DNA of 64,000 nucleotides from Haplodiscus bocki (taxonomy: Eukaryota): NCBI GenBank assembly GCA_965655095.1, contig OZ296649.1, positions 44,144,001 through 44,208,000 on the forward strand. Direction: 5' to 3'. The notes under the pieces were generated by a model. The model was given only the letters and a program-made list of their open reading frames with translations, was not told where the DNA came from and made no database searches. This document shows positions 23,401-47,400 of the stretch, piece after piece. The first letter of the stretch is position 1. Every line of letters starts with the position of its first letter. The position numbers and the translations under genes are program-made.

Positions 23401-26400
23401 AGCAGCAGGTTTGGGTTCGATTCTCTATCATGCCATATAACTTTGTAAATTCACAGACAATTGTCAGAAATTGCAATGGTTCCCATGGCACAATGGGTAG
23501 GACAACAGCGTTCTGAAGCGCTAGGTACTGGTTCGAATTCCAGATTATACATATTTTTTTACTTTATTGGAACGATTTTGCATTTTGAGGATTATTCTTT
23601 TTCTACATCTATCGAAATTAATATTTTCCGCTAACTTTTATTCAGTGATTCATGAATTCAAAGACTGACTTTTGTAGGTACCTTGTTTTTAGTTTATTAT
23701 TACTATTCTTTTCAAAATAACTACGAATTTTCTAACTTTTTCCCATTTGTTTCCCCTGCAAATTTTTCTAGAGCATCCTAGGCAGTTTATGTAAGCACAT
23801 GGAAGTACTTGCAAACACCAAAAGATCCTTTAACGAAAATTTTCGGTACTGTGAGGTTGAGACACAAAACCAACAGCGAAAAATCATGATATGCATGAAG
23901 TTTTTCTATACCAGAAACATTCAGAAACACAGAAGGGTTCCCCAATCAAATTCTTTTGTATGGCCAAACAAAAACAAAAAAATCAGTCGAAAAAGTGAGC
24001 TAACCCCGTTACGCAAACTTCATTGATAACAGAAACTTTCAGAAACACAGACGCTTCCAGACCTACAAAGAGAGCCCCCTACTTAATTTTTGGTATTGTA
24101 ATAATCTGACAAGAAAATTTTTCGACTCTTTTTGGTGATACCCTCATTTGGTTTACCGAAGCCTTCGCACCGATAAAATGAGCAGCGTCAACTTTGACAT
24201 ATTCTCAACTTGTTTTAGTTTCCTTAAAAAAATTTCAGGATGCAAAACACTAGTGAAAGTTTTTTTTCCTCCACAACTTGCGAATGTCATGCAAACTTCG
24301 TTGTGCAGATTTATTAGCCTTTTCTTTATTCCATTCATTCGGTGTTACTGCAAATAGTTAGTGCAAGTTAGGATGTACCAACTCTTAAACAATCTGATTT
24401 AATGTTTCCTGAAACTTTCGTACATTTTAATTCCTTCTCTTAGCTCATTTCCATATCAAAGCAAACACAACCTTAGAGAAAAATGTGGAAATTATCAGCT
24501 ATTTGATGGCACATACCGACAACTAGATAACCGGACTTGCCGCAGACTGTTTTTCGCCTCCATAGGGTCTATTCAACGAGTTTGAACGAAGGGTAATCCA
24601 CAAAATTCACGTTCCTTTTCTATAATTGNNNNNNNNNNNNNNNNNNNNNNNNNNNNNNNNNNNNNNNNNNNNNNNNNNNNNNNNNNNNNNNNNNNNNNNN
24701 NNNNNNNNNNNNNNNNNNNNNNNNNNNNNNNNNNNNNNNNNNNNNNNNNNNNNNNNNNNNNNNNNNNNNNNNNNNNNNNNNNNNNNNNNNNNNNNNNNNN
24801 NNNNNNNNNNNNNNNNNNNNNNNNNNNNATTTTCAACTGTTTTTTTGCCACTTAAGAACAAAATATTTTTTTCAAACAAACATCTCGCAACAGATTTTTT
24901 CATCTTCAGGCACGCATTTTGTTCTTTTTTTACAAGGGCTCTTACAGGGCGATCAAGTGCTAAATTCTTGTTTTTTCTCTAAAATTTAGGGCGGTTCTTA
25001 TACACCGACTATCTTATACGCCGAGCTCGACGATAATCGCCTGTATGTCGACTGGTACGGATCTGTTTCTGATTAAAATTACCTTTTGTATCTGCGGTCT
25101 CGTTTTTATCAAGTTCGTTCTGCCTTGTTTTTTTCTAGCTGGCGGTTTTCGTCTACTTGTAGAAACCATTGTGTAATGAAATATTTGAATCATACGAGTT
25201 ATAATAGTAACAAAGGCCATAATGTTAATAATATAGTATATTGCGGATAATACCGGTAGCTCCTCGCTATTGCTCGTCCCACTGATAATATCCGACAATA
25301 TACCCGCTCGCTCGTTCGCTCTGCTCTCTCACCGGCTTCCCTCCAGTCAGCCTCTCGCTTATATTATTGCTCGGCTACGCCTCGCCTTTTTTACTCTACA
25401 CTAATAAAAAATTCATCATCATTTTTTTCTCTCCACTAATAAAAAAATCATACACATTTTCTTTTTTCCAGCTGTGTAATAAAAAATACATAATCATTTT
25501 TCCTCTCCACAACAACAAAAAAAGTCTGCAAAATTTTAGGTCATTGTATTCCTCCCGAACAAAATCCCGATCAAATGTTCGGGTAAATGTTCGATCAAGT
25601 GAAAATGAAATTGTTCTTTTAAGAAAACTTAAAAGTTTTCTTTGTATTTGATAGATTTTTCTGGTAATATCTTACATTTCTTTCTCCTCGAATATTATAT
25701 TTTTTAGATTTGTCGTTGTTTTTAACATGTCTAGTCTTTTCGAAGTATTCCTTTAGTTTTACTACCATTTATAAGTTAACAAATTATGAATTTTGTTGAT
25801 CGTCATCTTCAGTCAAAATTGGTCTAATAGTTTGTTGTTCGTCTCTAATCAATTTCTCAAATGATAGCCTGTATAATATATTTTCTCTTAAATCATGAAT
25901 ATTTTCAAGAATCTTTTCAATATCATTATTGTTAATTTTTAAAAATATATCATCGATTATAGATAAACTCTCAAGAATTCTAGTCTGTGGAATTGTTTTA
26001 TAAAAACCGTTATAAATACATTTACGTGCTTCATTTAACTCACAAGTAATTCTTATATTTGTATAATCATAGAAGACTGCAGCGTTACAAAAATTTGATA
26101 TATCTTTTATCGTTTCCATTTATAAAAAAAATAGTATTTATACCTAATTATCATAATTTGAATGAAATTTATATGTTCTTAATTTTTTAAACGAGTCTTT
26201 TTCACAATTTGAAACATGATAATCAAACAGATTAACGAAATTTTCATTTGTTTCCATTAATTCAAACTTTTTAATGTTTTCTCTTGTAATTAACTTGAAA
26301 TGTGGATTTAAAAAACAGATGTTTTCCTCACCTATAGCTATACTATATGGTACTAAACTATTAGCCATATTTGAGATGTATTTATATATTTTCTCATTAG

Positions 26401-29400
26401 TTAGAATTGAACATACCATAACACCTCCAATTTATAAATACCTGTGTTTATTATTTTCTACACTTATTTTAAGTAAAAATGTATTCCCGTCAAATACTGG
26501 TTTGTTAAAAGCTCCTAAAACTTCCGTCATCATACAAGATTCGCTTTTACCCAAAACTATTTCCAAAGGCTTTACACAATATATATTATTTTTATCATTG
26601 GAGATATCTTCAAATTTTTGTACCTTAATCCATCCATTATTTTCAAAGGTTACTCCATAACATTTAGTATTATGTTCTGTGACATATATTATAGTCATTT
26701 ATATTGAGTAAAAATTACATTAATCTATCTTCTAAATATTTTATTCTATTAATTTTCATTTTTAATTCTGTATCTATATCTACTATTGTAGCACCCATTA
26801 AAATTATCAATTCTTTAAGAATAACATTCTGAATTAGTGTATCATATCCATTTTTTGATTGATATTTACGTGGTAATCTATTATATCTATCTAACATATT
26901 ATTTATTTCAACTCCTACCTTTGGATCTATTCTAATTACATTTATAAAAGCTTCCATTTTAAAAATGATAATTCAATTCAAATAATCTTATCTTAATAAG
27001 TGAATAGTGACAATCAGCAGGCTTTTATTGTGAGGATGGAGAATATAGAGTACATTGGATGTCTGTGATAGTTTATGTATAGAAAGATATTATAAAAATC
27101 ATCTTGAATCACATACTCATACTAATAACATTGGTAAAATAATATTATTTAAATAAATATGAATTACTATTGTGATATTTGTGATAAAACAATTAATCTT
27201 AAATCTAAAAACAAACACTCAAAATCTATTACTCACAACGAATTAGAAAAAACTTTTCATAAATTTCATTTCATAGAAACTCCATAGTGTTTTAACGTTG
27301 ATGATGTATATAAAGATTTTATCAACAATCACAATAAAAATATTCTTTTTATAATGTAAAATGTAATTTTAATTTAGTCTTTGATAATAATTTTTACCTT
27401 GTATCGAATCTGATTTATATACTAACAAAACGATTTGTTATTGGAAAAAAATTTTAATACACACCATTCAAGATTTCATTAACCAAGGATATAAATTTTG
27501 TCTCATCTTTCTAATATGAATTTTATAACAATTAATATTAAGATGAATATGACATATGAATATTATATGGATCAACCTATGTCTATGTGTGAGAGAAAGA
27601 TAAATATGAATAATGCTAAAAATCCACAATTGATAAATCCATTAGATCGTAATAAAAAACATCCTCTCATCAGAAAATATTCTCATGTACCATTTAATAA
27701 CAATTAAATTTGGATCTTCTTTGTAAAGTATGCGATCGAATGATAATCGAAAATCAATCTGGACATATGAACTACCTAGCTACCTTACGTAAAACAGATG
27801 ATAAAAGTTTATATAAAGTAAATACTGCTAATAATCTTAATTTGGATGAAGTTAATAAAATATTGAATGATTATATCTTTACTCATTACAAAAATTTTGA
27901 TTTTTATTTTATTAATTGTGAATTTGTAATAGAATTTGATAATAACTTCATTGCAAATATACAAACTAAGATTTTTCATAATACAAAATTTATCAATATA
28001 AATAAATATTTATTATATGATATTGATTGTTCTAAATACAGAAGACACAATTTTTAAAATATCAATCAAATGATAATTAATATAATTTGTGATAGAAGTA
28101 ACATGACATATGAACATTATATTAATCAACCGATGCACATGTTTGAAAGAAAAATAAATATCAATATTGCTAGAAATCCACATTTGATAAATTCTTTAAA
28201 TCGTAATAAAAACCATCCTATTATCAGAAAGTTTTTACATATACCATATAAAATTATTGATAAATTATAAAAATTTTTTACAATTATAATTATAATTATA
28301 TTTATTATACATATATGAAAATTTTTGATTATCCAAATCATTAGTATTTAAATATAAAATAACTTATTCATACAAATATAAAAGTGATTATACAATATAT
28401 TGGAATTGCTTTATAATCGTAAATTATGCTTTAATAAATGTGTATAACAAATGTTACTGATGATTATAACGATACTTTATCATTAAATAATAATTGTACA
28501 AACAATGATAATAATGAAAATAATATTGAGATATTAATAACTTTATTTACAAAAATCCCATCTGGAATGTCACTTATCTGTTTAATATCCTTCATGGTGT
28601 ATACCTTACTGAAGCCTTTATTCAACAAAAAAAACATTTGAATATATAAATGATGGATAAACTTTTATACCCGGTTTATCCAGTTAGATGTATCATAACA
28701 GGAACCAGCGAATGTGGCAAATCAGTACTTCTAACAAATTTAAAATTAAGTATTATTAACGAATATGATAAAAAATACATCTACTCACCCAGTCTTCATC
28801 AAGATTTATATCAAAAAATAATTAAATGTTTATTAATTTTATACCTATTAACATAATCCCAAATATTTTAAAGGAAAAAGATATAGATATAGCATTTGAA
28901 GAGATAGTTTTTAATAAAGATTTTGAGAAATCTGATACCGAAATAAAAACCTATGAATCGATAGAAGATTTAAATTTCCCCAAGAATATGATGATGGGGG
29001 TATTTTTATACTAGATGATTTAAATGAAAAAAAATGAATGATCCTAGAGTACAAGCAATGTTCAAACGATCTAGACATAATAATTTATCGATATTCATAA
29101 TCTCTCCAGACTATTACGAACTACCAAAGAAAACGATAAGAGCTAATGGAAATATCTATCACATGTTTAAACCACACAATTTCTTAGACGGTCGAAAAAT
29201 TTATCAAGACAAAGTTTCCATGGACATGACATTAGCTGAATATAAGTACCTAACTAGTGCTTGTTGGAATAAAAATTAACAACCACTTACTATTGATATG
29301 ACTAAAGATAAGTTCACAGGTCGATATCTATTAGGATTAAATAGTATATTTGTGCGGAACAGTTCTCTATTTTGTATTTATTAATTGAGTATTTATTCTA

Positions 29401-32400
29401 CTGTAACTGAACAAGATTTAATTATTTTACGTAAAGTAGCTGGACAACAGAAAAATCAACGAGCTCTTAAAATTAAAAATAGAATTTTGAAACAAACTCA
29501 TGATATAAAATTAGCGGAAACTTTATCACCTATTATTAAAAAATTAGATGAAGTTAATAAAACTACTCAAGAATCTTTATCACCTATTCCTAAAAATTAG
29601 ATACAATTAATGAGAGTACTAAACAATTAGGTGAAAATAACAAAGAGATAGTCATTACACCAAGTATTCTTTTACAAGACACTTTTAAATCTTTGGCCAA
29701 AGCACCTAGTTCACTACAATTAAACCAAGACAAGGAAGACAATTGGAGCGTTCCTGGGGTACCTTTAATATCTCTCGGTGGTGATAAAATACAAGTAAAA
29801 GAATATCTATGAATTTACTCTCGAAATACATAAAACATTATCACAAACATCGTACACTGGTAAATCTATGAAAAATGAAAATGATCAAAGAACTCTCTAT
29901 AGATTTTTACTAGATATTGTATATAATGGACAAAGTGAAGAAAAAACCAATCAAAAGAAATTTTTTTACAAGACTCTTCAAATTGTCTGGTAATATTAAA
30001 AAAGAAGAACCTGAAAATTTGAAAGGTCAAGGTAATGAGAAATTCAATATACCATCCAACATATTTGATATTTACAACAGACTTGAGGTCTTATTAGGAT
30101 TAAAATTACGTGGTCATACTGATACCATAACAGAAGCTAGTAACTTAATTGATGATTTATATAAAATAGGTGAAATACAAAACAAACGGCAATATCAAAT
30201 GCTCTTTGCAAATTTTCAACCTCATAAATGGAACTTCCAAGTAAATTATTAGAACAAATAGCTTATAATACTAGACCTGAAATAGAAGAACATTCGTTAC
30301 TTATCATGGATGACAGTAAAACCGAAGAGCATTTATCTCAACCATTACAAACAAATAATAAACAATTTAAAATAGCTGTTACTTTTCTAAGTGCTTATAA
30401 TGGAATTTTCAATGTTACAAATAAAAATAATAAGTTTTATTTCAAGAAAACGCTTATTGAAAAACATTTCATATAAATCAGAATACCTATAGGAGCATAT
30501 GAAATAGAATCATTGAACGATAAAATTAAACGGATTAATATTGATGAAAAGTATTATACAGAAGCAAATTATCCGTTTCATATCAGACCCAATTTTAGTA
30601 CTCTAGGTAGTATTATAGAAATAAAACCACAAGGACCGTTAATCAGCTTTGTGTTTAATGATAGTATTGGAAATCTTTTAGGATTTGATGAGACTATATT
30701 AATCGAACAACATATTTTATCAAAAAAATCAGTCGATATTTTATCATTTGATATCATTTTCATACACACAGACATAGCTGAAGGCATGAATTTCAGAAAT
30801 GAGAGAAATGGTATTATTCGCAATTTTACTAAGGATGTTGATCCAGGGTACAAAATCGTCGAAAAATTTCGAGGCGGGATACAATGGTATATGATGGATA
30901 GCAAAGACGTTACTTCAAGTATATGTTTTAAATTGAAGAATGAGAATCGTAATTTAGTTTCATTTAATGGTCAATCAGTTACGTTCAGGTTGTCAATCAA
31001 AGAAATTTGAATTTCAACATAATAAATGCCCAAAACTTTGATAAAATCGAGATTACATTCTAATAGAAACAAACCTAAAATTAAACAAGAATTTAATAAA
31101 ACTAAATCAAGTTTACCTACAAATATTCAATCACTCAAACAGAAACTATTATCGGGTAATATTTTTATTTCTATTAAAGGAGGTTAGAAGATATTCAATT
31201 GTTAGATAAAGAAGCATTTGATAAAAGTACTAGAAAAAGAGATTTTTTAAAAGTATACCACCAACAAGGTGCTAAATTGAATGGAGAAAAAAACAACTAT
31301 CATAAAATAGGTAATGCTCATCTTGAATATGATATAACAGTACAAGATCCCAATGGTGCTTTTGATAATAATAGTCGTATAAGATTGACTAATATTGGAT
31401 TGGCATATGTTTTTGAAGAAGCTGTTTTAACTACCACATTGTGATCAAACCTCGAACATAATAAATTCGTAGGACAGACACCTACCTTAATTCGAGTTTT
31501 AACAAGTAAAGATGGAGATTTATTATCACAATTTGATAATATTAATGAAGGTAATACAGACGATGATTTCGATTCAACTTCTTTAAAAAGATGCTCATTG
31601 ATAATCATAAAATCGGTAGCCACGAAGTTAATAGGGAAAAAATTAAAGCTCAATTACCACTAGAACATAAGTTTGGATTTTGTAAAACTTTTGAAAAAGT
31701 AATAAAAAATCTCGGTTTTCATATAACTTTCAAAACCGCTAATCTCCAAAATAATATTTACACTTCGATAGCTGATGGTACTCGAATTAATGTAACAATT
31801 AACAGTTTTTATCCGTATGTACCATTTCTCATACCTACAACCGAAACGCAACTTATGTTCAAGGAAGCTATTCAAATTGATTACAGAATCTTTTTCGATG
31901 AATGGTATACGGAGAAAAGAATTGCTACAGATCAAATATTTCAAGTTGATATTGGATCTTCTCAAGCAGGTACCTCTCCAAAATATCTAATTTGTGCCCA
32001 TCAACAAGCTAATAGATCAGATCCTCCCAATAAACGAAATAATACCTTAATTTTTGATAATCTTCGTGTAAGAAAATACTTTGTAGAAATAGATGGTCTT
32101 CGTTACCCACGCGATGTGGTTTTAACAAAATATGATTTATATGATTACATAGATCAATACAAAGATGTCAAACTATTTTATAAAGAATATGTTGGAGAAG
32201 AATTAATGAATCCGTTTATAACATACCCTGCTATGAAAAATAAGTACCCTATTCAAGTGATTGACCTCAGATTTCAAATAGATCATATAACACCTTAAAA
32301 GTTGAACTGTTTGAAGAAATAGAGCCGACCCGGCTAATGCTAGATTATTTGTTATAATGATCAGACGAAGAGAGATAGAGATGGTATCGGATGCAAATAA

Positions 32401-35400
32401 ATTAATTAAAGTTAAAGTTACATAAACATGAAAAAATTAGATTTTAGAGATTTTATGAAAAAATATAACTTAAAAGATGATACTATGAATGAGTCACAAC
32501 CACAGAAATGTTATAATTATCCTCTATACCCAAGAGATAGTAAAGTTTATTCAGATAAAACATTTGTAAATATAGACGATGGATCTCAAGGTGCTACTCA
32601 TTGGACTTGTTTTATAGTAAAAGATAACAAATCATTCTACTTTGATAGTTTTGGAGGACAGCCAGGTAATTTTATACTAATTCAATTACATAAACCAATA
32701 ATATATCACAATTATAAAATACAAGAAATTAATTCTAAGTTATGTGGCTCATAATGTTTGTAATGTTTCTATTTAATCGAAAGAATGAATTATTATGATG
32801 CTATATTAAAAATGTATTTTATATAAACTAATTACAAACAAATCTTTTCCCGATATCAATATGTCTTTGTATTCATACAAATATAATGATAAATATAATA
32901 ATATTCATTTATGTATAGTTGTAAATACACTATTATGTAAAATCATCAAATTTTTACGAATATAATTATCATTATATTATTCTTCATATATGAATGTGTG
33001 TAATTATACTAATAATGTATTCGGTAACAGAATCATTCCAATAATATATTTTAGATATCAATTTTTTAATTTTTTATACGCCTATTAACGTATTTGAAAA
33101 CTCCTCAAATAAGTCTGAACTTAAAATTGATATTTCTCTATTTGTACAGAAACCGTATCTAAGAACTAATTATATAGAAGCTAACATAGAAGAAAACATT
33201 GACTTAAAAAATCAATACAGAATTAAAAATTTACCAGATCCTATCAGCATACGAGAAACAGCATCAAAAAATTACGCTCATAATATATTTAAAAACGATA
33301 TTGATTTCAATGACGTTAAATTAGAGAATATAAAATTCGTTAAAGTTAACTATCAACCTGCTGTTAATGAACACTTAACTCCAAAAATATTTGTTGATAA
33401 TGCCATGGCGAATCATCATTAGTTAGAAGTATTCAAGATAATGATTCTAATAATTATAACCTAACAATTATAAATAGCATTACTTTGAATAAACAAGCAG
33501 AAAATGATGATGAAGTCATTACTAAAGCATATGTAGATCAATTTCATCAAGAGAATGAACGATCCCGACGAGATTCATGTATTAAGTTTTATGATGAATT
33601 AAATGATTTGGTGAAGAATAATTAAGACAATAATCTCAACGATAACAAATTAACAAATATAAATTCAATAACAATTAATAAAAATCCAACTGATGACAAT
33701 CAAGTCAGTAACAAAAAATATATTGATGATGAATTAGATAAGCACTATTGTGAGATTTAATACAACTTTTCAAACTATCTCAAAGTCTCTGTCGGCAATG
33801 ATATATATAATTTGGCTAAATATAATAAAATAGACATTACTAATATAACGGAAATGAGAAGCCCAAACATTAGTCAATGTCTATTACAGAAATGGATTTT
33901 GAAGTAAGTAGATAAAAATTATAATGCTAAAATTGATACATTTTTATAATCAACGACATCAACTTCACCAACAGCAGAAAATGGAGCTAGTAGCATTCCA
34001 CCAATTGGATGGAGTTTTTTGTACATAGAATCAAGTGGAAATAATCATGGAGCTAATCATATATCGGTTTCTTCGGAAAAAAGTGATATTATGCATATTT
34101 CTAACATAAAATTTTTTTATAATCGCTTTTCAACATCTGATCAAAATCTTCGTGGCATGGGTCGTTTTAGAATTCACTTATTATTATAAGGTAATACTTG
34201 GTCAACGATATATATTATAAATAAAAATAGTCAATATAGCAATGGATCAACAGTGTGGCATTTATTTGATGTTGATATTACACAAGAAAACTATGGTGTT
34301 GAATTTATTTATAATCAACTTCCTAGAGCTCATGCCGATATGTCTTTTTCAAATATAATAATAACTCATTCTGTATAACTGTAAATATCTATTATTTTAA
34401 ATGGATCAAATAAATTATTTTTCAGATTTATTTGAATCAATACCAGATTATAAAAAGATTGTCTTATTATTGTTTTTAATAAAAAATGATGTTAATTTTT
34501 GATAGGAATGTGGATTTCTAAAAAGTGATATTAATTTTCTTTATAAAGAATTTAAAATTACTTTACTTGAACTTAATCAAGAATACCTAGGTCATATTAA
34601 AAATCAAGAAGAATCCATTTTGGAAAAGTTTTTAAATAAGTAAATGGAAGCTTACTTCAATAGAATCTTTGAAGCTATTAGACATTAACGAAGTCTTATT
34701 TTGTTAATAAGCTCAGTGGAACCTGATATATTAAAACAAAGTAAATTTGCGGATGATGGAATAGATATAATTAAAGATATTGCTTTAGAGAAATTACACA
34801 GGCAACGAAGTCTTAAAGAATTAATAGCTCTGGCTTTATTAGAAAAACAATTTTCAGATCAATCAATCAATATCATATAATCACTAATATTCAGATATTA
34901 ACTATCATTATATTTGTATGAATAATTTATCTTTACTCTAAATATTATTGATCAATATAGTAAAATCACAAATACTCATATATGAATTTTTAAAATATTT
35001 ATAACTATAATTGTATAAATACTTATTTTTCTTTTGATAAATGACGACTTATACAAATTTAAATATTGATCCAGAATTATTAAAAATAAAAACAAAGGAT
35101 GATGAAATCCAAGATTTAAAATATAAAACGGAAAAACATGTTCACGAAAATATATTAAAATCTCTTAAAATTGATAATGAATATTATGAAAAGAATAATA
35201 AATCATTAAATAAAAAGAAAAGATTATTAATTATCACCGAATTTATGATTGGATCAGGATCGGCAATAGGGAGTTCAACTATGGGTTTGATTAACCCTGG
35301 GGCGGGCAATATTATATCGAGTAGCACAGCTTTATTAACAAGTATTGCTATCTTAATCACAAATGAGTACATATCAAAATTAAAGATACGATATACTAAG

Positions 35401-38400
35401 TTACGGGAGTGGATAAATGTAATCACACTACTATATGAGAAAACTCTATGGTCTTCATTGGTTAATAAGAAAATTGATGAAAAAGAAGCTGAGGAATTAA
35501 AAAAGAGTTATAATCATTACGTTGATAAAAGAAAAGAAATCATGAAAAACACTAGTTTTAAAGTAGGAGATGTATTTGGTAATATTATAAGTAAAGATAA
35601 TTTTAATCAAGAATAATTAACTAATTTAAATAAATTTTTAGCCAAAATAAAGTGAAAATAAATATAAATATTAAATTTGTTTTTTTTAACCTAGAAAGAA
35701 AACAAATATTGATCTTTGAAACAGTGCTCCACCTGAATATGATTTTTAATAGATAAATGGCAGAAACTTATTGCTTGGGAGGTCGTCATTATAGTAATAC
35801 TAATAATATCACTCAATATGGAAAAACTTGTTAGAATTATCAAAGGTACTTGTAGTATTGGCGGTCGTAATAAATCACAACTTTTTACTAAGTAAATGAC
35901 TAGAGGAGAAGATTTTATTAAAAATGCTAAATGCACTCGCGGCCATAGATCAGCTATGAGTAATTCAGCATGGTGTGATTTGAATGAAAATTGTACTGTT
36001 TTAAATCTTCACGATGTGTGCCATAATCCAAAGTGTAGATGTCAGAAACAGATTACTTTTCCCCCAAAGCAATTTCAACTTGAAGGGGGTTCGATTGAAA
36101 GTAAAGTACAAAAAAATTTTGAAGGGACACAAACTGCTTGGAGTACATTTTTAAAACCGGCAATCAATGTAGCGCCACCGTTTATAGGAATGACTGTTAG
36201 TGCTAAGATTAAAAATCCTAAAGTTGGACAAGCGACAACTAATATTCTAAAGTCATTTTCAGGTGGTAAAATCTTATCAGTCACAGACATGCATGGGCAT
36301 GGGCTTCATTTGAAAAAAATGTAAATCATTTCAAAGATAGTTTTCTGAATAAATCAGTACTTGTATTAAAGATTTATGTGATTACGATTTAATTAAAAAA
36401 TGTTGTCGGAGTAAAAATGTTTTGTTAAAATCTAATTTCCATAAAAGTAAAAATATGAATGACGGACTTAATCCACAATGTAAATTCTGTACAAAAAAAT
36501 ATTATGTAGATAATCAAGATCGATTACTGAACAAACAAAAATTGTATGATAAAAAAATTCGTGACAAAATTAACACTCGTAAAAAGATTTGCTTAAATAA
36601 TAAAAAAAAAACAGACAATAATTTTCGTTGAATTTGTAAAACGAGAAGTAGAATTCGTCAAGCATTACAAGGAAAAACAAAATCTTCTTCCAGAAAAGAT
36701 TTTTTAGGAATAGATATCGAGACTTAAAGAAAATGGAAAGAATTTCAATTCTTACCTGAAATGACATGGGATGACATTGAATCAGATCATGTCAAACCAA
36801 TTTGTATGTTTAATATATCTAATGATGAAAAATTAAAAGAAGCATTCTCCTGGAAAAAAACTCAGCCCTTACTCAAGCATGATCATCACCTCAAGGGAAC
36901 AAACTTCAATTTCCTAGAATATCAATTGCAATTCATTAAAGCTGATCAATTTATCAAATTAAATGCCCAAGAAGGATAATATTAAAACTTTCATTGATGA
37001 GATATACTGTTCTCCACCCAAGAAGAATTATGAAACTAATAAGATAATCTACAATCATATCGATGAAATCGGGAGTATTGATCTCGCTGATATGGTTGAC
37101 TGTAAGACTTCAAATAAAAAAGGATATAGATGTATATTTATAATTTTTGACAATTTCTCTAAATATTTGTGGGCTATATCACTTAAAAACAAATATAGTC
37201 AAACTATCACAAATGAATTTTCAACTATATTAACAACACAAGAACGAAATCCTCTCAAAATAGAATCTGACAGAGGTAGTGAATTTTATAATAGTATTTT
37301 CCAAAATTTTTTAAAAATTAAATATTTAAATCATTTTTTCAAGATTCACAGATAAAGGCCCTTCGATAGTTGAACGTGTTATTAGAACAATGCGTAATCT
37401 ATTAAAAAAGCCAGTATTTTTAGCAGGAAATGCTGATTGGTTAAGTGAACTACCATCTGTTATTAAAAAATATAATAACACCATTCACAGCTCAACGAAA
37501 ATGAAACCAATCGATGCTAGTGAAAAATCAAATGCAAACGAAGTCTATTCCAATCTTCGAGACAAGAGAAGAAAACTTAACCCAAAATATAAATTAGGTC
37601 AACTTGTTCGTACAGCTGATATTGAAAGAGTTTTTAGTAAAAGTGATTCAACGAACTTTAGTTATAACTTATATACAATCACAGAAGTCTACAATATACC
37701 ATCATATAATATTGACTTTTTACCCGAGAGATGTAATGAAATTCTATTACTACCAACAAAACTATCTCTTGAAGAAAACACTCAGGATATGAAGAAACTG
37801 AAATTAATTCAATAAAATCAATTTTAATAAATGGAAATATCTGAGGATGAAGTTATACAAAAATATGGCAAAAGATGCGGGCGTTGTAATTGAAACACTT
37901 TACTACCATATGAATATGAATTTACTTGCTTTTCATGCGGATATAACGTAAACAAATGAAAACATGAACTCTCTAAATTTCAACGAAAAAAAATAAAAAT
38001 TTTATGAATAGATTAAAATACGCTGACAAAAAAGCTTTTGTATTTGTGTAGATGTATATAAAAATTCTGACCGTGATGATTTTGATAGAATATTTGAAGT
38101 TTTATCAGCACTAAAAGATAGAAAGTTAAAAATAAACAATACTTTAATGGAAGTATATATAGATATGTTAAAAAATCCTGATTTCGAACAAAACAAATAT
38201 TCAATAACTTCAACATGTATTTACAAAATTGCTCATCATAGTATTCGATTAATGAAATGGATTTGTTAATATGATAGATCTCATTACGAAAATATAAATT
38301 ATTATCACCTGATGGGTTCTGTTTGTAAATTTTTAAATGAAATACTTTGATGGTAATTATTACGTTGAAGTAAAAGATCATAGATTTAGCAATCATCCAA

Positions 38401-41400
38401 CTGAAAGTTTAATATTACGCAAACGAGATCCTCCAATTTCTCTCAGAACTCAGTATCAAGTACAAATTGAAACTCCGATAAGAAAAAATCAAAAATTTGT
38501 TGAAAATAATGGTGAATTGGAAGTTAAAAATTATCCTAAAAATAAACAACCAATTATTCAAAACCAACAACAAAAATTTAAACTACCAAACTGCCCATCC
38601 TGCAAACAAAATAATCGGTTAGATTTCAATAAAGAATACTATTGTCGTAATTGTGAAAACATAAACAACAAACAGAGACATCAAATTGATAAAAAAGTTC
38701 TTAGACAAGGTAGAGATTTCTCAACTATTTTAAAATATGCTAACAAAAAAAATAAGAGAGATTTGGATGAATATGGTTAATACTACATATATTTCAACAA
38801 AAGATGTGATTGATAAATTACAACAGTTGAAAAGCAAAACAAAATAAAAATTTTATAAAAATATAAAAAACTATTATGATAATATGAATATTAAATTTGA
38901 TGAAGATGCTTTTGCTAAAATTTCTCAAGGTATTAGTAAACTTTTTCATGAAGTTTTATTGTTAATGAAATTTCTACAGACTAAACCACAAGTTAAGAAT
39001 ACAAATATTAATAATTATGAGTTATACTACATTGTTATTAAAAACAGAGATGAAAAAGAAATTGTAGATAACCAATATGAAAATGATTATATTTATTTTA
39101 ATGATTGTTCCTAATCATTATATTGGACGAAAAAATAATAATGAAACGTTAAGGTAGAGAAAAATGAGATCTTGTATAACTCATTTCAATAAATTATTAC
39201 TATATAAATGGAGATGATAATGAATAATGAGAATAAAAAATTATCACGAAATAGAAAACGAAGATTCGATCGTAAAAACAAAATGAATAATGATATAAAA
39301 TTATTACTAAATAAAATTAAATCTGAAACGAAAAAGAAATATAAAAATTTTGAAAAAATTTAACAATTAGAAAATCTTTTAGTTAGAATTAAATACGCAA
39401 ACAAACCTGCTAATATAGAATGTGCGTTAAAAGAGTTAAACAGAAATCAAGTTATTAATAAAAATTTACATGAAAATAAAAATGAATTATTACTAGATTA
39501 TGATGACTCATTTGAATTGGTTGGAAATTTACAAGTAGGTGATCAAATCAGACAAACTCATAGTAGATTTAGAAATAATGCTGATTATGAAGCTTATATT
39601 AATAACATTGATCAAGATTATGATGCGGAAGATGCTATTTTTAATGGTTATATTTAAAAAATCAAAACTTCTCAATTTAATAAAGTAAACAGAAGTCAAT
39701 ATGGTAATCGATGTGATTTTAAACAAGAAATTATTGAATATCGAAGAAACAATTGCTTTATACCCACAAAAGGATATTGTTTTGTTAAATATATTAATTT
39801 CTTAACTGGTGGAGATTACAAACAACAATATTTAGAATTTATCAGAAATGAAAAAAGACGGTCAAATATTCTGACTAAAGCGAGAATTCAACCATTTTGT
39901 AGAGCTAATAATAATAATTTAGGATAATTCGATGGTGAAAGAGTTTTTCCTAGATCGGTTACAGAAAGAAATAATGCTTTGTTTTTATACAACAATCACT
40001 TTTGTTCAAAATGGAAATCTGCAGGTGAAAGTTTTAATCAAGCTATTACAGAATTGAAGGATAATTTTAAAACAGTTGATAATTTTATAACTGAAGAAAT
40101 TGTCAAATCTCACTTTGAATACATATATAAACCAAAGAAAATTGAATCTCATCTGACTAATTTTATTGGATATGACCTTGAAACTCTTAATACAGATAGG
40201 GCAAAACCATATAAAATGACTTTTTGTCGATTAGGTAAAATAAGTGGCAGATATGATCGTGATCCTACAGTGGATGAATTAAACAAAAAAAAAGACGCGA
40301 TTGCATTTGTTGGAGATAATTGCGTTGGGACTGCTTTAGATTTCTGTTTAAAATTAAAAGGAGAAGAGTACAAAGACAAAACAGGTAAAGTTCTTGAATA
40401 TCAACTTCAACTACACGCTCATAATGGATCTGGTTTTGATACTTGGATAGTTTTAAATACTCTTCCTTGTGATAAAAGAATTGTCAATTTAATAAAAAAC
40501 GGAAAACACATTATTGAATTAAAAGTATTAAATGGATATATTGATAAAAATAAAAAACAAATTCCTCAATATCTTCGTTTTACATGTGGTTTGACTCATT
40601 TAAATTATTTGTTGAAAAAATTAGGAAAGACTTTTAAATTACCAAAAGAATTATTGAAAACTGAAATAAATCATGATGAAATTGATGAAAATAATTGGAG
40701 AGAAAAAAAAGATGAATGGTTGCCTTAAGTTAAAAACGATGTTCTCTGTACTGCTTACTCATGCGCTCGATATATTAAATGTATGGAAGAAATAACAGGA
40801 GTTTCGATGAAAGATTGTCTTAGCGCTCCAGGTCTAGGATGGCAATATTTTACTAGCATGCGAGATGAAATTGATCAACCAATATACACTTATAATGACA
40901 AATACTTGAGATGGTTTGTAAGACAATCAATAAAAGGCGGACAAGTTTGTGCTTTTAATTAACATTATAGATCAAAAATTTGTGATGAAGTCCTAAAAAT
41001 ATTATCAGAAAAATTAAATGTAAAAGGAAATGTGTATGATATTAAAGAAGCTTATATGAAATCTAAAAGTCATCATGAAGAAATCATTAAAAAAGTTTAA
41101 GAAAGTAAATTCAGTGATTATCGAGATATAGACGAAGAAGAAATGAACAATTATTTTTATAAAAAATTATGTGAATTACCAATCCATAAAATATTACAAG
41201 AAATAAGTTTAAATGATCTATTATGGGATTTCGATGCTGTTAGTTTATATCCAAGTGCTATGACAGATGAAAAATCAATTTATCCGAGAATAGAAACTGG
41301 TTATGCTTATACTCCAGATATGAATGATGAGCTCGTTGAAAAATTTTATAATCAAACTTCCACACAAGGAAGTGCTATATAAAAATTAAATATTACAATG

Positions 41401-44400
41401 CTAAGAATCTAATTGTTCAACATCTTCCTGTTAAAGAACGAGTAAATAAAATGGAAATTAATCGTATGAGAAATGGTTATATTATTGAAACTTTAACATC
41501 TGTAGATATTCAAGAAATTGTTAAGATTGGAGGTAAAGTAATAGAAATTTATGGAGGTGATATTTATCGTGAAAACTTTAAAGTGTCTCCAATTGAAAAA
41601 CTAATCGATAAATTATTTGAACATCGACAAAAAAATAAGGATGAAAATAACGATGTTATGCAATTATTAGTTAAATTAATTATGAACAATTTATGAGGTG
41701 AACAAATTAGAAAAGATATTGAAGAAAGTTATCAATGTAAATCTGAGATGTGGATGATGACAGAACATGATTTTTAGATTATCAGAAAATCAACTATGGA
41801 AATTATATTGTAAAAATGAAAGATGATGAAGGCTTGCAAGATGAAGTTTAAAAAGTCAACACAATGATATTACACTTGGGTGCTTTCGTATTATCAAACA
41901 GTAACTGAACTATGAATAATTTTGTACACGCGATTGATGGATTTTATACAAACGATGTCTATTATACAGTTACTGACTCATTATACATTGAAAACAAACG
42001 TTGGGATAAATTAGACAAGGCCGGACTAGTTGAAAAGAATAGATTACAAGGTAAGAACGATTATAAAGAAAGAGGTATATGGTATGGTCTTTTCTTAGCT
42101 CCAAAAATAAAATATTGTTTAATTATAAATAAATATGGTGTTATAGATGAGCACAAAACATTCAAAGGATTTACAAATGTGAGTGATAATTTAGATAGAA
42201 AAGAATATTTTAATATGGCCGATGGAGGTAAACTAATAGCAAAAGTACTATTAAGTTGGAAAAAATCATTTAGTCAAGGAGCTGTAATTCCACATAACAT
42301 GAGAAATTGTGTTGATTGTAAGAAAGACATTCTTTGTGGTTACCTGCGATAAATTAGTAAATCAGAGAAAAAAATTCTCAGCTAATCTGAATGAAGTGAA
42401 AAGACAACCTTCTAATGAATTTGGTCATATGCTTCCTAAGTAAATTTGCTAACTTATAAATGGTGGTAACAGTAAAGGAATACTTCGAAAAGACTAGACA
42501 TGTTAAAAACAACGACAAATTTAAAAAAATGTATTCTACGAGGAGAAAGAAATGTAAGATATTACGAAAAAATTCTATCAAATACAAAGAAAACTTATAA
42601 GTTTTCTTAAAAGAACAATTTCATTTTCATTTCATCGAGCTAGTACATTTACCCGAACATTTGATCGGGATTTTGTTCGGGGGGAATACAATGACCTAAA
42701 ATTTTGCAGACTTCTTCTGTTGTTGTGGAGAGGAAAAATGATCATGAATTTTTTATTACACAGCTGGAAAAAATAAAATGTGTATGAATTTTTTATTAGT
42801 GGAGAGAAAAAAATTGATGAAGAAATTTTTATTAGTGTCGAGTAAAAAAGGCGAGGCGTAGCCGAGCAATAATATAAGCGAGAGGCTGACTGGAAGGAAG
42901 CCGGTGAGAGAGCAAAGCGAACGAGCGAGCGGCTATATTGTCGGATATTATCAGTGGGACGAGCAATAGCGAGGAGCTACTGGTATTATCCGCAATATAC
43001 TATATTATTAATGTTTGACATAATGGCTTAATTGTTAAATTTATTTCATGGCGACTATGCCATGATCATATCCTGTTTCATTACAACATGACAAATACTC
43101 CATGATATAGAGATGACCATGTCAGGGTGAGCGTGAAACACTATGTTCATGCCATGGCGTAGTATGATTGTCATGTTTGACTATGGTTGTCAACCCTGGT
43201 ATTCCTTCGTCTAGCTGCACATATTTTAAGTGAAGCAATATGAAGGAATACACAGGTTGGCAACCATGGTCATACATGACAACCATACTATCTCATGTGT
43301 TATTTCGGTATTTGATTTTCAATTTGGTTCTGGTCGGTTTAAGAGTAAAATAAATAATTTTGGTCGCTTTTCGGTATATCGACGGGCACTAGTTTGAACC
43401 CGTTATCTATCTTGCGCCACTCTCTCAAGTGATTGCATTTTCTTCCCCTAAGCACCGCCTTTTTGTTTTTCTCCCGGCAGTATAATCTATTACATTACTA
43501 TTGGCTGAAACAATTCTGTCCTGTCGGGTTTCCAAATGAAGTTGTCTTTTATCTTTTGAATAGCTTTGTTAAACTATACGCAGATGGCTTTGTCGATGTA
43601 GTAAAGCTTCCCGCATCCTCTCAGTTGAACACAGAATGCTGCCGTGAAGAAAAAAGTTTTCAATAGCATCCAGTCTTTACCCAACAAAATTAAAATCCAT
43701 TTGAAGTCTATGCAACTTCTTACTTCTGAAAGGAAAAAATGATTGGCTTACTCACTGAAGCTTTTTTACGAATGAAGAAATATTTTCCAAAAGCCGCGTT
43801 CTTTAGTCGACATTTTTTTCCGTATAAAATCTCACTTCTATGTCAGTCACTATTGTTTCTAGCCAGCACTTTACAATTAAGTAGAAATGCTCGGCTAATA
43901 AAGGCTGTTTTTCACCGTGTGTTCGATGAAAATAAAGAGACAGCACATAACTGAAGAGTAGATCAAATAGAAGCAAGCATACTACTATACAGGTCGTGAA
44001 CGAGAAGGAAACGTCCATATGTACGAAAAAAATTCGGGACTTTGGAACAAAATTTGTTCGTGATACTCACTCAAAAATACCAAAAAAATTTCGGCCAAGG
44101 CATATACCGAAGATATTTGGACTAAGGACTTTCTCAGACAGTATATATCGTACCAAACAGTCTCTGTACTAAATTTTCAAGTTTTCATTAAATTTTTACA
44201 TACATTTCAAAGAATTGTGAGAAATTTTTTGCAAGAAAGATAAATAAGATTATGCCAATTTTTTTGAGGAAAAAGCTACGATATTTCTTTTTAAAAAGGA
44301 TCTCTATGGATGATTTGAGCCTTATGAGCGTCATCGACTTGAATTGCCCGGGTTTTTTTTCTCGTAGGCAATGAATTGATCAAAATTTTAGGCACCGGAA

Positions 44401-47400
44401 TTTTATATCAATCTTCCCAAAACAGGAAGAGTACAGGCCTGGAATACGAACACTATCTTCTTTATCATTGGATGACGTTTGAACTTTCGGTTCAAAGAAA
44501 TTTCTTGATCAACCCGCTTTCCATATCTCGGAAAACTTTCCTAAAGTAAAAACGATTAATGTTTGTGACACCTCGCTTTTATATACCGAAATATTTTGCA
44601 ACTGTCGTGTTTCGTGTATCCGAGACACGCCAAACATACACCCAAGCCTTTTGAGAGAAGCAATTTTTTCAGAAAGCAAAAGGCTACTCAAAAAAGCCTT
44701 TACCCTAAGGGCGGCAATGACTTGGTTTAAGAGCCGATCTTGACTTTCCGTTTTTGAAAACCTGCGACTAGTGTTTTTGCCAAGACTGAGTAAGCTCATG
44801 AAACTTACACGTATACTTGGGAAAAAAATTATGCCGCAAAATGACGTAAAAAACAAAAGTTTTGTTATCATGAAAACATTTTCATTCATCCCACAGATTA
44901 TCCCAAAAAAGTTCGGACATTTTTCAGCATAATTCAGCGCAGTTTCAAAAAACAACATTTTTACCAACTCCTATCGGTGCTGTTTTAATACTGTTCGGTG
45001 CTGATTTTTTAAATTACTAAAAACTTTCAAAGCCGAAGATCTCCGATTCAACACTGGTCAGCTGTAATAGTATTTAACCTAAAGAGAGATATGAAAGCTT
45101 CAACATAAACAGAATACAGACAAAAACTGAAGTTCATTTCATTGATTTGCAGAAAAATCCAAAACTCATAAAATTCATAAAATTTCTTCCTTTTGGGCTA
45201 GAAATGCCAAGAATTTCCGAAAGCTTATTAGTACCGGAACTTCCCTGAATTTTTTAAAATATCTTTGGCTTTTGGCAAAAGATTGAACAACTAAGCATTT
45301 TCATTGTTCATTTTTTTCGCAGTGTTGGCTGCAGACCTTTTTTTGCTTTCAAATTGAGGTAACTCAAATTTAATAAGAAGCGTTGCCTTTTCAAACAGAT
45401 AATCAAACAGGAAATAATCAAAAAACATTTTCTAAAAATTTTAATAAAAGTTTATATTTTTCGAAAAATGCTTGAATCATTGGTATCACCAACCTTTGCT
45501 ATTTGCGTTGGCTGACGTATGATATATTGGTGCGTGTTAACTTGAACTGCCAAAGTGCTATTACGTAACGCCAGTACCATATTATCTAATATGTTTGGGA
45601 TTTAAAAGGAGAAATGTTGTTTACGGTGAGAGGTTATCCATTAAAAAATTTAGTACTGTAAAAAATGGGCTTTTTAATAAAAATTACTAAGTCGTTGACT
45701 ACAGATGAAAAAATTCATTTAAGCAAGTGCTATTTTCTTGCTTTTGTAGGTTGGTTTTTGAGTTTTAAAAAAGCGCTGAATCAGCACCTTTTAGAGATTT
45801 TTAGATAATTTATAGTGCTGAGCTGAAACAGCACTGTTCATTGCTGACAAATCCTGGATAGAGCTGATCAGCAAAGAATTTTTCAAAGACTTGAACCTCT
45901 GACACTGCAACTCTAGTAAAATTTTGACTTTACTCGCTGGAACTGCAAAAATAAATCGACAAAAATCTTTCGACACCCTTTCGGTTCAACCACTTGATGT
46001 TAATTTCACAAATAACAATTCCTTCAGTGTCATATTTTTAGGTCGATGAGTATTTTTAGATCAGTCCTTACCTGGGCCCACTGCAGATTTCCCTGGGGAA
46101 GATGCTGATTGACATAGCCAAATTTATGCTCATTTTCTTCCTTGTAATGATATCTTTCACCTGCGGCATCAGTCAACTGTATGAACGCTACGACACACCC
46201 CCCGTGAAAATCGAGGTCGGCGAAAAATGTGGAAAACCGGAATTCCAATATCAACAAAACTATCCTTACTATGTCGAGTAAGTGCACGCTTCAATTGCGT
46301 CTTCACTATCTGCAACTTTTCCTCTTTTTAGAACCTCCCTTTCAATTGAGGAACGCCCACTGTGGACATGAGGTCAAAAAGGGAAGGTTCATTTGGGAGT
46401 AGGGAGATTTTTGAGCTGATAAGTGAGTCCCAGTGTTTATGCTTTTTAAGGAAAATAACGTGAGGGTGTACAACCATTTATGATGCGTATTTACGGTATC
46501 CCGGAAAATTAATCCGTCGGACAGAATGTCGTCAATACTGTTACTTGGGAAAATCAATAACGGAAAAACCGATTTGATTAAAGTAGTATTGGATTTTTTG
46601 CTAAGCCGGACTGGCGCCATTAAATTGTGTATTTTAGCATGCTCAATGAAAATTTTGAAGGTAAATTGGGTTTCACTAACAAAGTGTTTTGAAGCAAATT
46701 CGAAGGTCAACTAAATTAGTTTTACTTCTGAAATCAGTTTGAAAATCGCGAATTGGTTTTTCCATTCCATTCATGGTTATGTGACGCTTTCGTGATTATA
46801 GTAAGACCTGGACATTAGCATGGAAAGTGTTCTATATAAGTTCATTCTTGAACCTTTGTTCAAACCTTTGAAGTACCTCATACTGATTCTTCGCCGTCAA
46901 AAATATATTACTTTAGAAATTTTTCCTTGGAAATGAAAACAATGAAATTGTTCATACTTACTGACACTTCTGTTTTTCCTTTCAGTGCGGGAAAGGCGGG
47001 GGTGAATTTGTTCTTCGCGCTATTTGGACTGAACCCGGATGGTATCAAAGGCTTTGAGCTTAACATCGAGAACCAACACCACTTCGTGTATGCCACTGGA
47101 CTGTTCCTGTTTGCCTCCTACTGCATAGCCTCTGCTCTCGTCCTCATCAACATGCTCATTGCCATGATGAGTCAATCCTATCAGGTCATCGAGGTCAGTT
47201 CACTTACAACTCTACTTACGACTGTTATACCTTCAAATCAATCGAAGCTTAAAAGGGACTATGTATCTGTCAAATTCTAAGTTAACTTGGTTTACTAGGT
47301 ACGGATTTGTTTTTATCCAAAATGATGGGGCTTGAATATAGATAAAGTAACAAATGAGTAGGCAACTGTACGCTGAGAAGTTTTAACGATTAATATTTAT

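What the first reader, a model, noticed from the sequence alone, without database searches (positions are those of the whole stretch)
33078..34378. Hidden fibre-like gene with tail-fibre-type shaft repeats and a MAM-like head
Seen by manual translation; the ORF track misses it because the start is ACG and the frame is broken. There are four repeats of the form D(L/F)xxxx(I/L)xNI...P....xxxKx(Y/F)(V/I)D, then a ~150-aa beta-rich C-terminus ([39 protein letters not shown]). Established: DAATKxYVD-like repeats occur in phage tail fibres and trimeric adhesin stalks, and YMYIETS / FWYHM / MGxLxV / DIAIDDI are MAM adhesion-domain motifs. Inference: this is a receptor-binding spike using a metazoan-type adhesion domain, placed right after the capsid-protease block, which would point to an infectious particle.
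Basis: partly seen in the sequence, partly recalled or inferred. Interest (0 to 1): 0.82.

Follow-up and report, generated by a model that had tools for sequence, protein, structure and literature searches.

The report
Polinton fibre with MAM-like tip
A broken copy of a gene, inside a virus-like DNA element in a host genome, whose intact relatives look like a three-stranded stalk tipped with a domain resembling animal cell-adhesion modules, which suggests how such elements might attach to cells as virus particles.

Summary
33078-34378 is a decayed gene in a 17.8-kb Polinton/Maverick element (terminal inverted repeats, integrase, protein-primed polymerase, capsid) lying in a host ion-channel intron. 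It has 1971 database relatives; 82 of the best 120 are 430 aa or longer. Four shaft repeats score 16-27 bits against a shuffle maximum of 9.8 and weakly match phage tail fibres. A natural intact relative models as a homotrimer through the shaft only (0.64, best control 0.00). The ~180-aa head folds confidently; its top structural matches are animal MAM domains, tied with a bacterial gingipain adhesin. It is MAM-like, not a member: below the Pfam cut-off, no four-cysteine pattern, no signal peptide. Among relatives the head is the most variable part and the gene is mosaic throughout, not swapped as a head block. Best reading: a virion attachment fibre (0.68). Virions, ligand and animal origin of the head are inferred. 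Fibres are known in protist relatives; a MAM-like tip was not found in my searches.

The parts
33078..34378 (+). Decayed fibre-like gene (relatives mostly 430-450 aa): N-terminal segment, four-repeat shaft, MAM-like head
33183..33275 (+). Shaft repeat 1
   Evidence: 22.6 bits, shuffle maximum 9.8; this piece has a weak PHROG tail-fibre hit, E 0.03
33303..33401 (+). Shaft repeat 2, short variant (shared with 9 of 83 relatives)
   Evidence: 16.1 bits; variant classes
33434..33547 (+). Shaft repeat 3, followed by a segment whose modelled trimer contacts fall 3-4 residues apart (coiled-coil-like; inference)
   Evidence: 26.6 bits; interface list
33626..33730 (+). Shaft repeat 4
   Evidence: 26.2 bits; lowest-error trimer contacts at residues 189-224 of the relative
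33827..34375 (+). MAM-like beta-sandwich (jelly-roll) head, about 180 aa
   Evidence: relative P0015 residues 260-441, pLDDT 84-96; fold searches; sequence hits
25225..25785 (+). Left terminal inverted repeat of the Polinton element
   Evidence: 532 identical of 561 ungapped columns with the right repeat
42443..43011 (-). Right terminal inverted repeat; candidate 6-7 bp target duplication outside the ends (25218-25224 and 43019-43025), right end offset by several bases
28650..29276 (+). Packaging ATPase, in three pieces
   Evidence: Pox_A32 E 0.016, below cut-off; pieces
30228..31007 (+). Probable minor capsid (penton) gene, in two pieces
   Evidence: position and recalled motif likeness only; Pfam PF22374 E 0.0038; no relevant PDB hit
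31178..32295 (+). Major capsid protein (double jelly roll), in pieces
   Evidence: PF21738 E 6.7e-7, 29.3 bits, above cut-off 27
32428..32754 (+). Probable adenain-like maturation protease, cut short
   Evidence: recalled His/Asp/Cys motif likeness; no hit
36963..37812 (+). Retroviral-type integrase, in two pieces
   Evidence: rve E 2.4e-9
38848..42349 (+). Protein-primed family B DNA polymerase, in many pieces
   Evidence: DNA_pol_B_2 E 8.7e-6 and 0.0064; pieces

Best explanation
The gene encodes the attachment fibre of a Polinton (Maverick/adintovirus-type) particle; this copy is a pseudogene in a decayed provirus. In intact relatives three chains wind together through 4-6 tail-fibre-type repeats into a stalk, and each chain ends in its own MAM-like jelly-roll domain, so the fibre tip would show three binding heads. 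The short N-terminal segment would dock on the capsid, probably at the penton vertex. The head would bind a surface protein or glycan of the host cell, and its surface loops diversify and recombine among copies. Shown here: gene, repeats, element context, family conservation, mosaicism. Modelled: head fold, shaft trimer. Inferred: capsid docking, ligand binding, particles, and capture of the head from an animal MAM protein with loss of the disulfides, as expected of a protein that folds outside the secretory pathway.
For: Context: inside a TIR-bounded element with capsid, ATPase, integrase and polymerase genes, next to the capsid block. Shaft: repeats far above shuffles; PHROG tail-fibre hits E 6.6e-6 and 3e-5 for relative P0168; two solved tail fibres are the top 2 of 4 PDB hits to the family profile, E 0.056 and 0.1; the only hit among 50,697 phage records is annotated as a tail fibre, E 6e-3; an Atlas look-alike cluster at 0.90 is mostly Preplasmiviricota. 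Trimer: three copies of residues 112-442 of P0015 score 0.64, best of 3 controls 0.00; the mark was reached by 21 of 30 solved pairs and 0 of 23 single chains; runs agree in at least 79% of contacts, partner pLDDT at least 69; confident contacts only at residues 118-238. Head: enteropeptidase MAM region Z 13.5 (rmsd 3.0, 149 aligned) and scavenger-receptor-C MAM Z 13.2 (3.3, 152) lead 48,161 chains; the same two lead for a distant subfamily, Z 13.3 and 13.2; Foldseek top hit is the same MAM, E 9.2e-7; P0168 has one PDB sequence hit, MDGA1 MAM, E 0.0038; MAM is the top or joint-top Pfam family, 8 of 92 and 12 of 33 members. Constraint: 103 of 421 sites differ in at most 2 of 82 relatives where uniform decay predicts about 0; head sites shared with distant subfamilies are the conserved ones (entropy 0.41 against 1.16, p 1.7e-10). 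Variability: 31 of 181 head sites against 4 of 201 shaft sites are highly variable. No hydrophobic signal or membrane stretch in 8 of 8 relatives checked. Precedent: the fibre-like Ltf is in purified Gezel-14T particles (10.1101/2022.07.28.501842, passages).
Against: No particle, expression or binding data. All shaft-to-fibre sequence matches for the window's own subfamily are weak (best E 0.0016-0.006 in 5-11 of 92 members; no PDB hit for its profile). The trimer job is outside its calibration (three copies; calibrated on pairs), only three copies were tried, and the pass may come from memory of solved tail fibres. The monomer model of the shaft is unreliable (pLDDT mostly under 50). Gingipain K1 adhesin ties with MAM (Z 12.5 and 13.0) and carbohydrate-binding modules follow at Z 10-11. 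Three of four distant relatives searched singly against the PDB found no MAM chain, 0 of 10 further relatives hit Pfam MAM, and a search of long proteins found no cellular MAM donor (weak test). Head variability may be relaxed constraint; no DNA of relatives was available for dN/dS. Gene order in sibling elements is unchecked. The penton and protease assignments rest on recalled motifs.
Confidence: 0.68

Rival explanations
1. It is a virion fibre, but its head is a glycan-binding module of the wider jelly-roll family (cleaved adhesin, carbohydrate-binding module) of prokaryotic or ancient viral origin, and the MAM likeness is shared ancestry, not capture from an animal. It could bind mucus, matrix glycans, or the glycosylated coat of a helper giant virus.
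For: Gingipain adhesin within 1 Z of the MAM hits; many carbohydrate-binding modules in the Foldseek list; Atlas leads are cleaved adhesin 0.87 and F5/8 type C 0.86, both under 0.9; protist Polinton-like fibres carry laminin G3 or lectin domains (PMC12220804, passages); no MAM disulfides.
Against: Identity in the structural alignments is 19-20% to the scavenger-receptor MAM against 8-10% to gingipain; the sequence-level head hits are to MAM and Cleaved_Adhesin is not among the families listed; no relative in 185,579 prokaryotic genomes by a pattern scan.
Confidence: 0.17
2. It is a structural decoration or stabilising protein of the capsid, or an internal assembly protein, and does not mediate cell attachment; the elements may spread mainly inside the genome.
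For: A PHROG 'head decoration' family also matches the repeat (E 9.6e-5; 9 of 92); thousands of fragments show heavy in-genome accumulation; MAM of neuropilin-1 is monomeric and its partner surfaces are context-specific (PMC5104691, passages).
Against: A stalk plus terminal adhesion-type domain, with repeat number varying from 4 to 6 and variability concentrated in the head, is the pattern of attachment fibres (established knowledge).
Confidence: 0.1
3. It is not a virion protein: a host-derived or domesticated adhesion protein, a secreted decoy, or a neutrally copied passenger.
For: The fold is that of animal extracellular modules; this copy is dead.
Against: No signal or membrane stretch; lies between the TIRs of the element; strong site-specific constraint among relatives; fibre-type repeats.
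Confidence: 0.05

Closest known systems
Fibre proteins of protist Polinton-like viruses (Gezel-14T Ltf; cryptophyte PLV fibres with laminin G3, collagen, phage-tail repeats, S74 chaperone)
   Same: Phage-fibre-like repeats plus a binding domain in a Polinton-type genome; read as attachment proteins; Ltf found in particles (passages).
   Different: Those are often over 1000 aa with S74 chaperones or collagen; this family is 420-533 aa with no such Pfam hit, has one MAM-like head, and sits in an integrase-bearing element in an intron-containing host.
Entry proteins described for animal Polintons/adintoviruses: nematode fusogen, PLA2X, GasderminX, cupiennin-like; one map labelled 'Fiber'
   Same: Same class of element; accessory genes thought to serve entry. 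One insect-associated adintovirus map carries a gene labelled Fiber (PMC8502044, text of Supplementary Fig S2); oomycete Polintons encode a beta-helix fibre-like protein.
   Different: Those are mostly membrane-active proteins. No MAM label in the passages or the supplement text I could search. Whether the one 'Fiber' is related was not tested.
Adenovirus fibre (tail, shaft, knob on the penton base)
   Same: Overall order: short N-terminus, repeated trimeric shaft, C-terminal beta-sandwich head (adenovirus side from my own knowledge).
   Different: Repeats resemble phage tail fibres; the head matches MAM-type jelly rolls, no adenovirus knob is among the 50 rows; the model gives no confident head-head contacts, which is uncertainty, not proof of separate heads.
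MAM domain (PF00629; meprin, neuropilin, RPTP-mu, enteropeptidase, scavenger receptor C, MDGA1)
   Same: Jelly-roll fold over 146-152 aligned residues, and the core strand motifs align.
   Different: Below the Pfam cut-off; profile positions 1-27 unmatched; no four-cysteine pattern; the acidic pair of the last strand reads Ser-Asn or Ser-Asp; not in a secreted or membrane protein.
Phage tail-fibre repeat (PDB 23sh gp9, 8vbx gp47; PHROGs 26630, 11393, 2710)
   Same: The I-x-N-L-x-x-P...D-A-x-T-K-x-Y-V-D unit aligns.
   Different: Single or few units match at modest E-values; here the unit is tandemly repeated and joined to a MAM-like head.

Membership tests
Polinton/Maverick element | Terminal inverted repeats bounding 15-20 kb | tested here: met
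   about 560-bp repeats, 94.8% identical, 17.8 kb apart
Polinton/Maverick element | Protein-primed PolB and retroviral-type integrase | tested here: met
   DNA_pol_B_2 E 8.7e-6 (25.3 bits, just under cut-off 25.8, on a fragment); rve E 2.4e-9
Polinton/Maverick element | Double jelly-roll major capsid protein | tested here: met
   PF21738 29.3 bits, cut-off 27
Polinton/Maverick element | A32-like ATPase, minor capsid protein, adenain protease | tested here: inconclusive
   Pox_A32 E 0.016; the other two have no significant hit; assigned by position and recalled motifs
Polinton/Maverick element | 6-bp target site duplication and AG/AGT end motifs (PMC8097293, passages) | tested here: inconclusive
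   a 6-7 bp candidate flanks the element but the right end is offset, and several other short matches exist in this AT-rich DNA; the end motifs are not evident
MAM domain (PF00629) | Jelly-roll beta-sandwich of about 160-170 aa | tested here: met
   models of two subfamilies; Z 13.2-13.5, rmsd 3.0-3.3, 149-152 aligned
MAM domain (PF00629) | Pfam gathering score 26.4 bits | tested here: not met
   19 bits at E 0.0014; best E 1.8e-4 among 33 (bits not shown); window copy no hit
MAM domain (PF00629) | Four conserved cysteines, two disulfides (PMC5104691, passages) | tested here: not met
   only two head columns are Cys-rich in the near subfamily (86%, 82%); distant relatives have 1-3 Cys elsewhere
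MAM domain (PF00629) | Acidic Ca2+ site shared by neuropilin-1, meprin, RPTP-mu (absent in neuropilin-2) | tested here: inconclusive
   by alignment the last-strand Asp-Asp reads Ser-Asn/Ser-Asp and the N-terminal ligands are unaligned; model coordinates could not be inspected
MAM domain (PF00629) | Extracellular module of a secreted or membrane protein | tested here: not met
   maximum 19-residue hydropathy 0.43-1.46 in 8 of 8 relatives; crude test, no signal-peptide predictor
Viral attachment fibre | Repetitive homotrimeric shaft | tested here: met
   in a model only: 0.64 against best control 0.00; repeats; other stoichiometries not tried
Viral attachment fibre | C-terminal globular binding-type head | tested here: met
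Viral attachment fibre | N-terminal anchor on the penton; presence in the particle | not testable with these tools
   the single complex job went to the trimer; no intact penton sequence was fetched
Viral attachment fibre | Binds a host-cell receptor | not testable with these tools
   needs bench work
Adenovirus fibre | Trimeric knob fold and triple beta-spiral shaft | tested here: inconclusive
   no knob among listed rows; absence from a list does not exclude it

The most novel reading that the evidence does not exclude
An animal Polinton lineage joined a phage-type fibre stalk to an adhesion domain captured from an animal MAM protein, stripped it of disulfides, and uses it as the receptor-binding tip of an infectious particle; thousands of endogenous copies then record an arms race, with the head diversifying and recombining. 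It would be a virus using a copy of its host's own cell-adhesion module as entry key, and a direct handle on whether animal Polintons spread as virions.
Probability: 0.38. Interest if true: 0.8.

Novelty: new variant of a known kind. Interest (0 to 1): 0.62.

Why it matters
Whether animal Polintons make infectious particles, and how such particles would enter cells, is open: vertebrate Maverick particles had not been observed (PMC8097293, abstract passage) and coral elements are argued to make them from expression data only (PMC11131425, passages). A conserved, constrained fibre with an adhesion-type tip is hard to explain for a purely intracellular transposon. It names one small, well-folded domain that can be expressed and tested for a ligand, and one marker to look for in particles. 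The very large set of natural variants allows a test of receptor-driven diversification. Fibres as such are known in protist Polinton-like viruses, so the class is not new; the MAM-like head is the new part.

Tried and rejected
Pfam on the window's own pieces: no MAM hit; one chance HLH hit. Near-family profile against PDB sequences: 0 hits at E<=1. Pfam on 10 further relatives: 0 of 10 MAM. In one search, 4 of 8 proteins hit MAM (my choice of rows was partly off). Single distant relatives against the PDB: 1 of 4 hit MAM, 1 a tail fibre, 2 only chance-level hits. Search for a cellular donor among proteins of 934-2665 aa: 0 of 124 candidates (weak). Prokaryotic genomes: 124 pattern matches, 0 confirmed. 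Foldseek on viral models gave only generic jelly-roll matches with poor rmsd. Head-swap idea: shaft and head trees conflict far more than random column splits (log-likelihood loss per column 7.6 and 14.2 against 1.2-2.3 in 5 splits), but halves of the shaft (11.5, 9.6 against 3.8, 2.5) and of the head (10.5, 5.4 against 3.8, 2.7) conflict too (83 of 92 aligned proteins, 9 short ones dropped), so a head-specific cassette swap is rejected in favour of gene-wide mosaicism. The AU test alone is biased and is not relied on. The estimate that a neutral ORF would stay open with P 0.02 is weak because hits were selected by length and score. PHROGs and PDB gave nothing for the protease or penton pieces. 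Host taxon is not determined: searches on a recalled guess of a worm group (passages of PMC6451197) showed only repeat-class fractions and nothing on this gene. Literature: 'polinton' with 'MAM domain' 0 papers; 'MAM domain', 'virus', 'fiber', 'capsid' 0 papers; no relevant listing; no fibre or MAM-domain passage in PMC11131425, PMC11296320, PMC8097293 (MAM not searched there), 10.64898/2026.10.13.758929 or 10.64898/2026.06.19.733378 (term searches only). The library lacks most subscription papers; slide files of PMC8502044 had no reader and its archive was cut; bioRxiv supplements are closed.

Full report
Setting. An AT-rich island (22-29% GC against about 36% outside) is bounded by inverted repeats at 25225-25785 and 42443-43011, 94.8% identical over 561 ungapped columns. 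Between them lie pieces of a packaging ATPase, a double jelly-roll capsid protein, an integrase and a protein-primed polymerase, plus probable penton and protease genes assigned by position and recalled motifs. This is a Polinton/Maverick. Its core genes are in pieces. Three ion-channel exon-sized pieces match Pfam Ion_trans positions 47-83, 111-156 and 203-237 in order at 11920, 46060 and 46852 (3 of 150 plus-strand flank frames scanned, of 163 listed), so the element sits in an intron of a spliced host gene. The host taxon was not determined; an animal is inferred from the spliced channel gene and the element type.

Observation. Natural relatives map onto 33081-33407 and 33410-34375. The copy has ACG at the start position, a frame change, a short out-of-frame patch and five premature stops. 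Read with X at the stops, the larger piece finds 1971 relatives among 2628 candidates; the best 120 are 59-72% identical. 82 of them are 430 aa or longer and 72 of those 82 share the same first six residues. A profile search finds 2872 cluster representatives, the listed ones mostly fragments. All further work used these natural proteins, unchanged.

Shaft. A repeat profile trained on distant relatives finds four units in the window copy at 16-27 bits; 1000 shuffles reach 9.8 at most. Near relatives have 4 units (76 of 82) or 3 (6 of 82); five distant ones have 4-6 (these were training sequences, so only the counts matter). The unit resembles phage tail fibres: PHROG E 6.6e-6 for P0168, weak hits in 5-11 of 92 near relatives, solved tail fibres as the top two PDB hits of the wider profile at E 0.056 and 0.1, and one phage record annotated as a tail fibre. 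Three copies of residues 112-442 of P0015 score 0.64, best control 0.00; 21 of 30 solved pairs and 0 of 23 single chains reached the mark; runs agree in at least 79% of contacts; partner pLDDT at least 69. Confident contacts are confined to residues 118-238. The job is outside its calibration, and solved tail fibres may be remembered.

Head. AlphaFold2 gives residues 260-441 of P0015 pLDDT 84-96 and leaves most of the shaft unresolved. Against 48,161 chains the best matches are enteropeptidase (chain range 338-499; its MAM region by my knowledge) Z 13.5, scavenger-receptor-C MAM 13.2, gingipain K1 12.5, reelin 12.3, RPTP-mu 11.7. Foldseek ranks the same MAM first. A model of P0275, 37% identical to P0015, repeats this: 13.3, 13.2, 13.0 for gingipain; its alignment included near-family rows, so it is only partly independent. 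Sequence tips the balance to animal MAM: MDGA1 MAM is the sole PDB hit of P0168 (E 0.0038), the wider profile reaches the scavenger-receptor MAM at E 0.43, and Pfam MAM is hit by 8 of 92 and 12 of 33 members. These are weak, and the misses are many. Membership fails on score, cysteines and secretion. So it works like, and probably descends from, a MAM domain, but is not filed as one.

Evolution among copies. Conservation is strongly site-specific: 103 of 421 sites differ in at most 2 of 82 relatives, and head sites shared with distant subfamilies are the least variable. The head is more variable than the shaft (mean pairwise distance 0.28-0.37 against 0.17-0.26; 31 of 181 against 4 of 201 high-entropy sites). 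The short form of repeat 2 (9 of 83) occurs with five head types, each also found with the long form, which a single tree cannot easily give. Tree conflict between shaft and head far exceeds random splits, but so does conflict within each part. The gene is mosaic throughout. The set was chosen by similarity to the window copy, and no DNA was available for dN/dS.

Mechanism. Most likely an attachment fibre: a trimeric stalk, anchored by its N-terminus on the capsid, holding out three MAM-like heads that bind the host cell (0.68). Shown: gene, repeats, context, constraint, mosaicism. Modelled: fold, trimer. Inferred: docking, ligand, particles, origin of the head. Rivals: a glycan-binding head of non-animal origin (0.17), a non-attachment capsid protein (0.10), a non-virion protein (0.05).

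What is known. Protist Polinton-like viruses encode phage-like fibres, some with laminin G3 or lectin domains (PMC12220804, passages), and one is found in particles (10.1101/2022.07.28.501842, passages). Animal elements have described membrane-active proteins (PMC8502044, passages) and a nematode fusogen (10.1101/2023.08.22.554363, passages); one insect-associated map carries a gene labelled Fiber (PMC8502044 supplement text). MAM features are from PMC5104691 and PMC9800333 (passages). Searches pairing MAM domain with Polinton or with viral fibre gave 0 papers; the library is incomplete and some supplements were unreadable.

Verdict. A real, previously unlabelled kind of Polinton fibre, seen here as a dead copy: new variant of a known kind, interest 0.62.

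Noticed in passing
window 11920-12081, 46060-46278, 46852-47277 (+): Exons of a host ion-channel gene flank the element, which lies in an intron of more than 30 kb; the last piece looks TRP-channel-like (recalled motif) and ends at a GT donor.
   Followed up: partly
window 36353-36976 (+): Broken gene with weak endonuclease VII/HNH-like PHROG hits (E about 0.001) just before the integrase.
   Followed up: no
window 35041-35613 (+): The longest open frame between fibre and integrase (191 aa) has a central hydrophobic, glycine-rich stretch between charged helices; no Pfam or PHROG hit. A candidate membrane-active entry partner.
   Followed up: no
window 35896-36321 (+): 142-aa frame with a Cys/His-rich N-part and a basic C-part with L-x-G-G-like sites, recalling adenovirus core-protein precursors cut by adenain (recalled; no significant hit).
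   Followed up: no
window 27516-27697 and 28070-28251: 182-nt direct repeat, 77% identical, encoding two similar protein segments near the left end of the element.
   Followed up: no
window 25787-26972 (-): Four short minus-strand frames inside the left repeat's inner edge, with no family hit.
   Followed up: no
proteins P0168, P0272-P0286, P0263: Distant subfamilies with the same head; five were scanned and have 4-6 shaft units in 420-533 aa; one cluster has 37 members. Several start with a short F-G motif like the near family, a candidate capsid anchor.
   Followed up: partly
window 16036-16299 (+): Weak reverse-transcriptase fragment in the host intron (E 0.0019).
   Followed up: no
window about 24630-24830: Run of 200 N (assembly gap) about 400 bases left of the element.
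   Followed up: no
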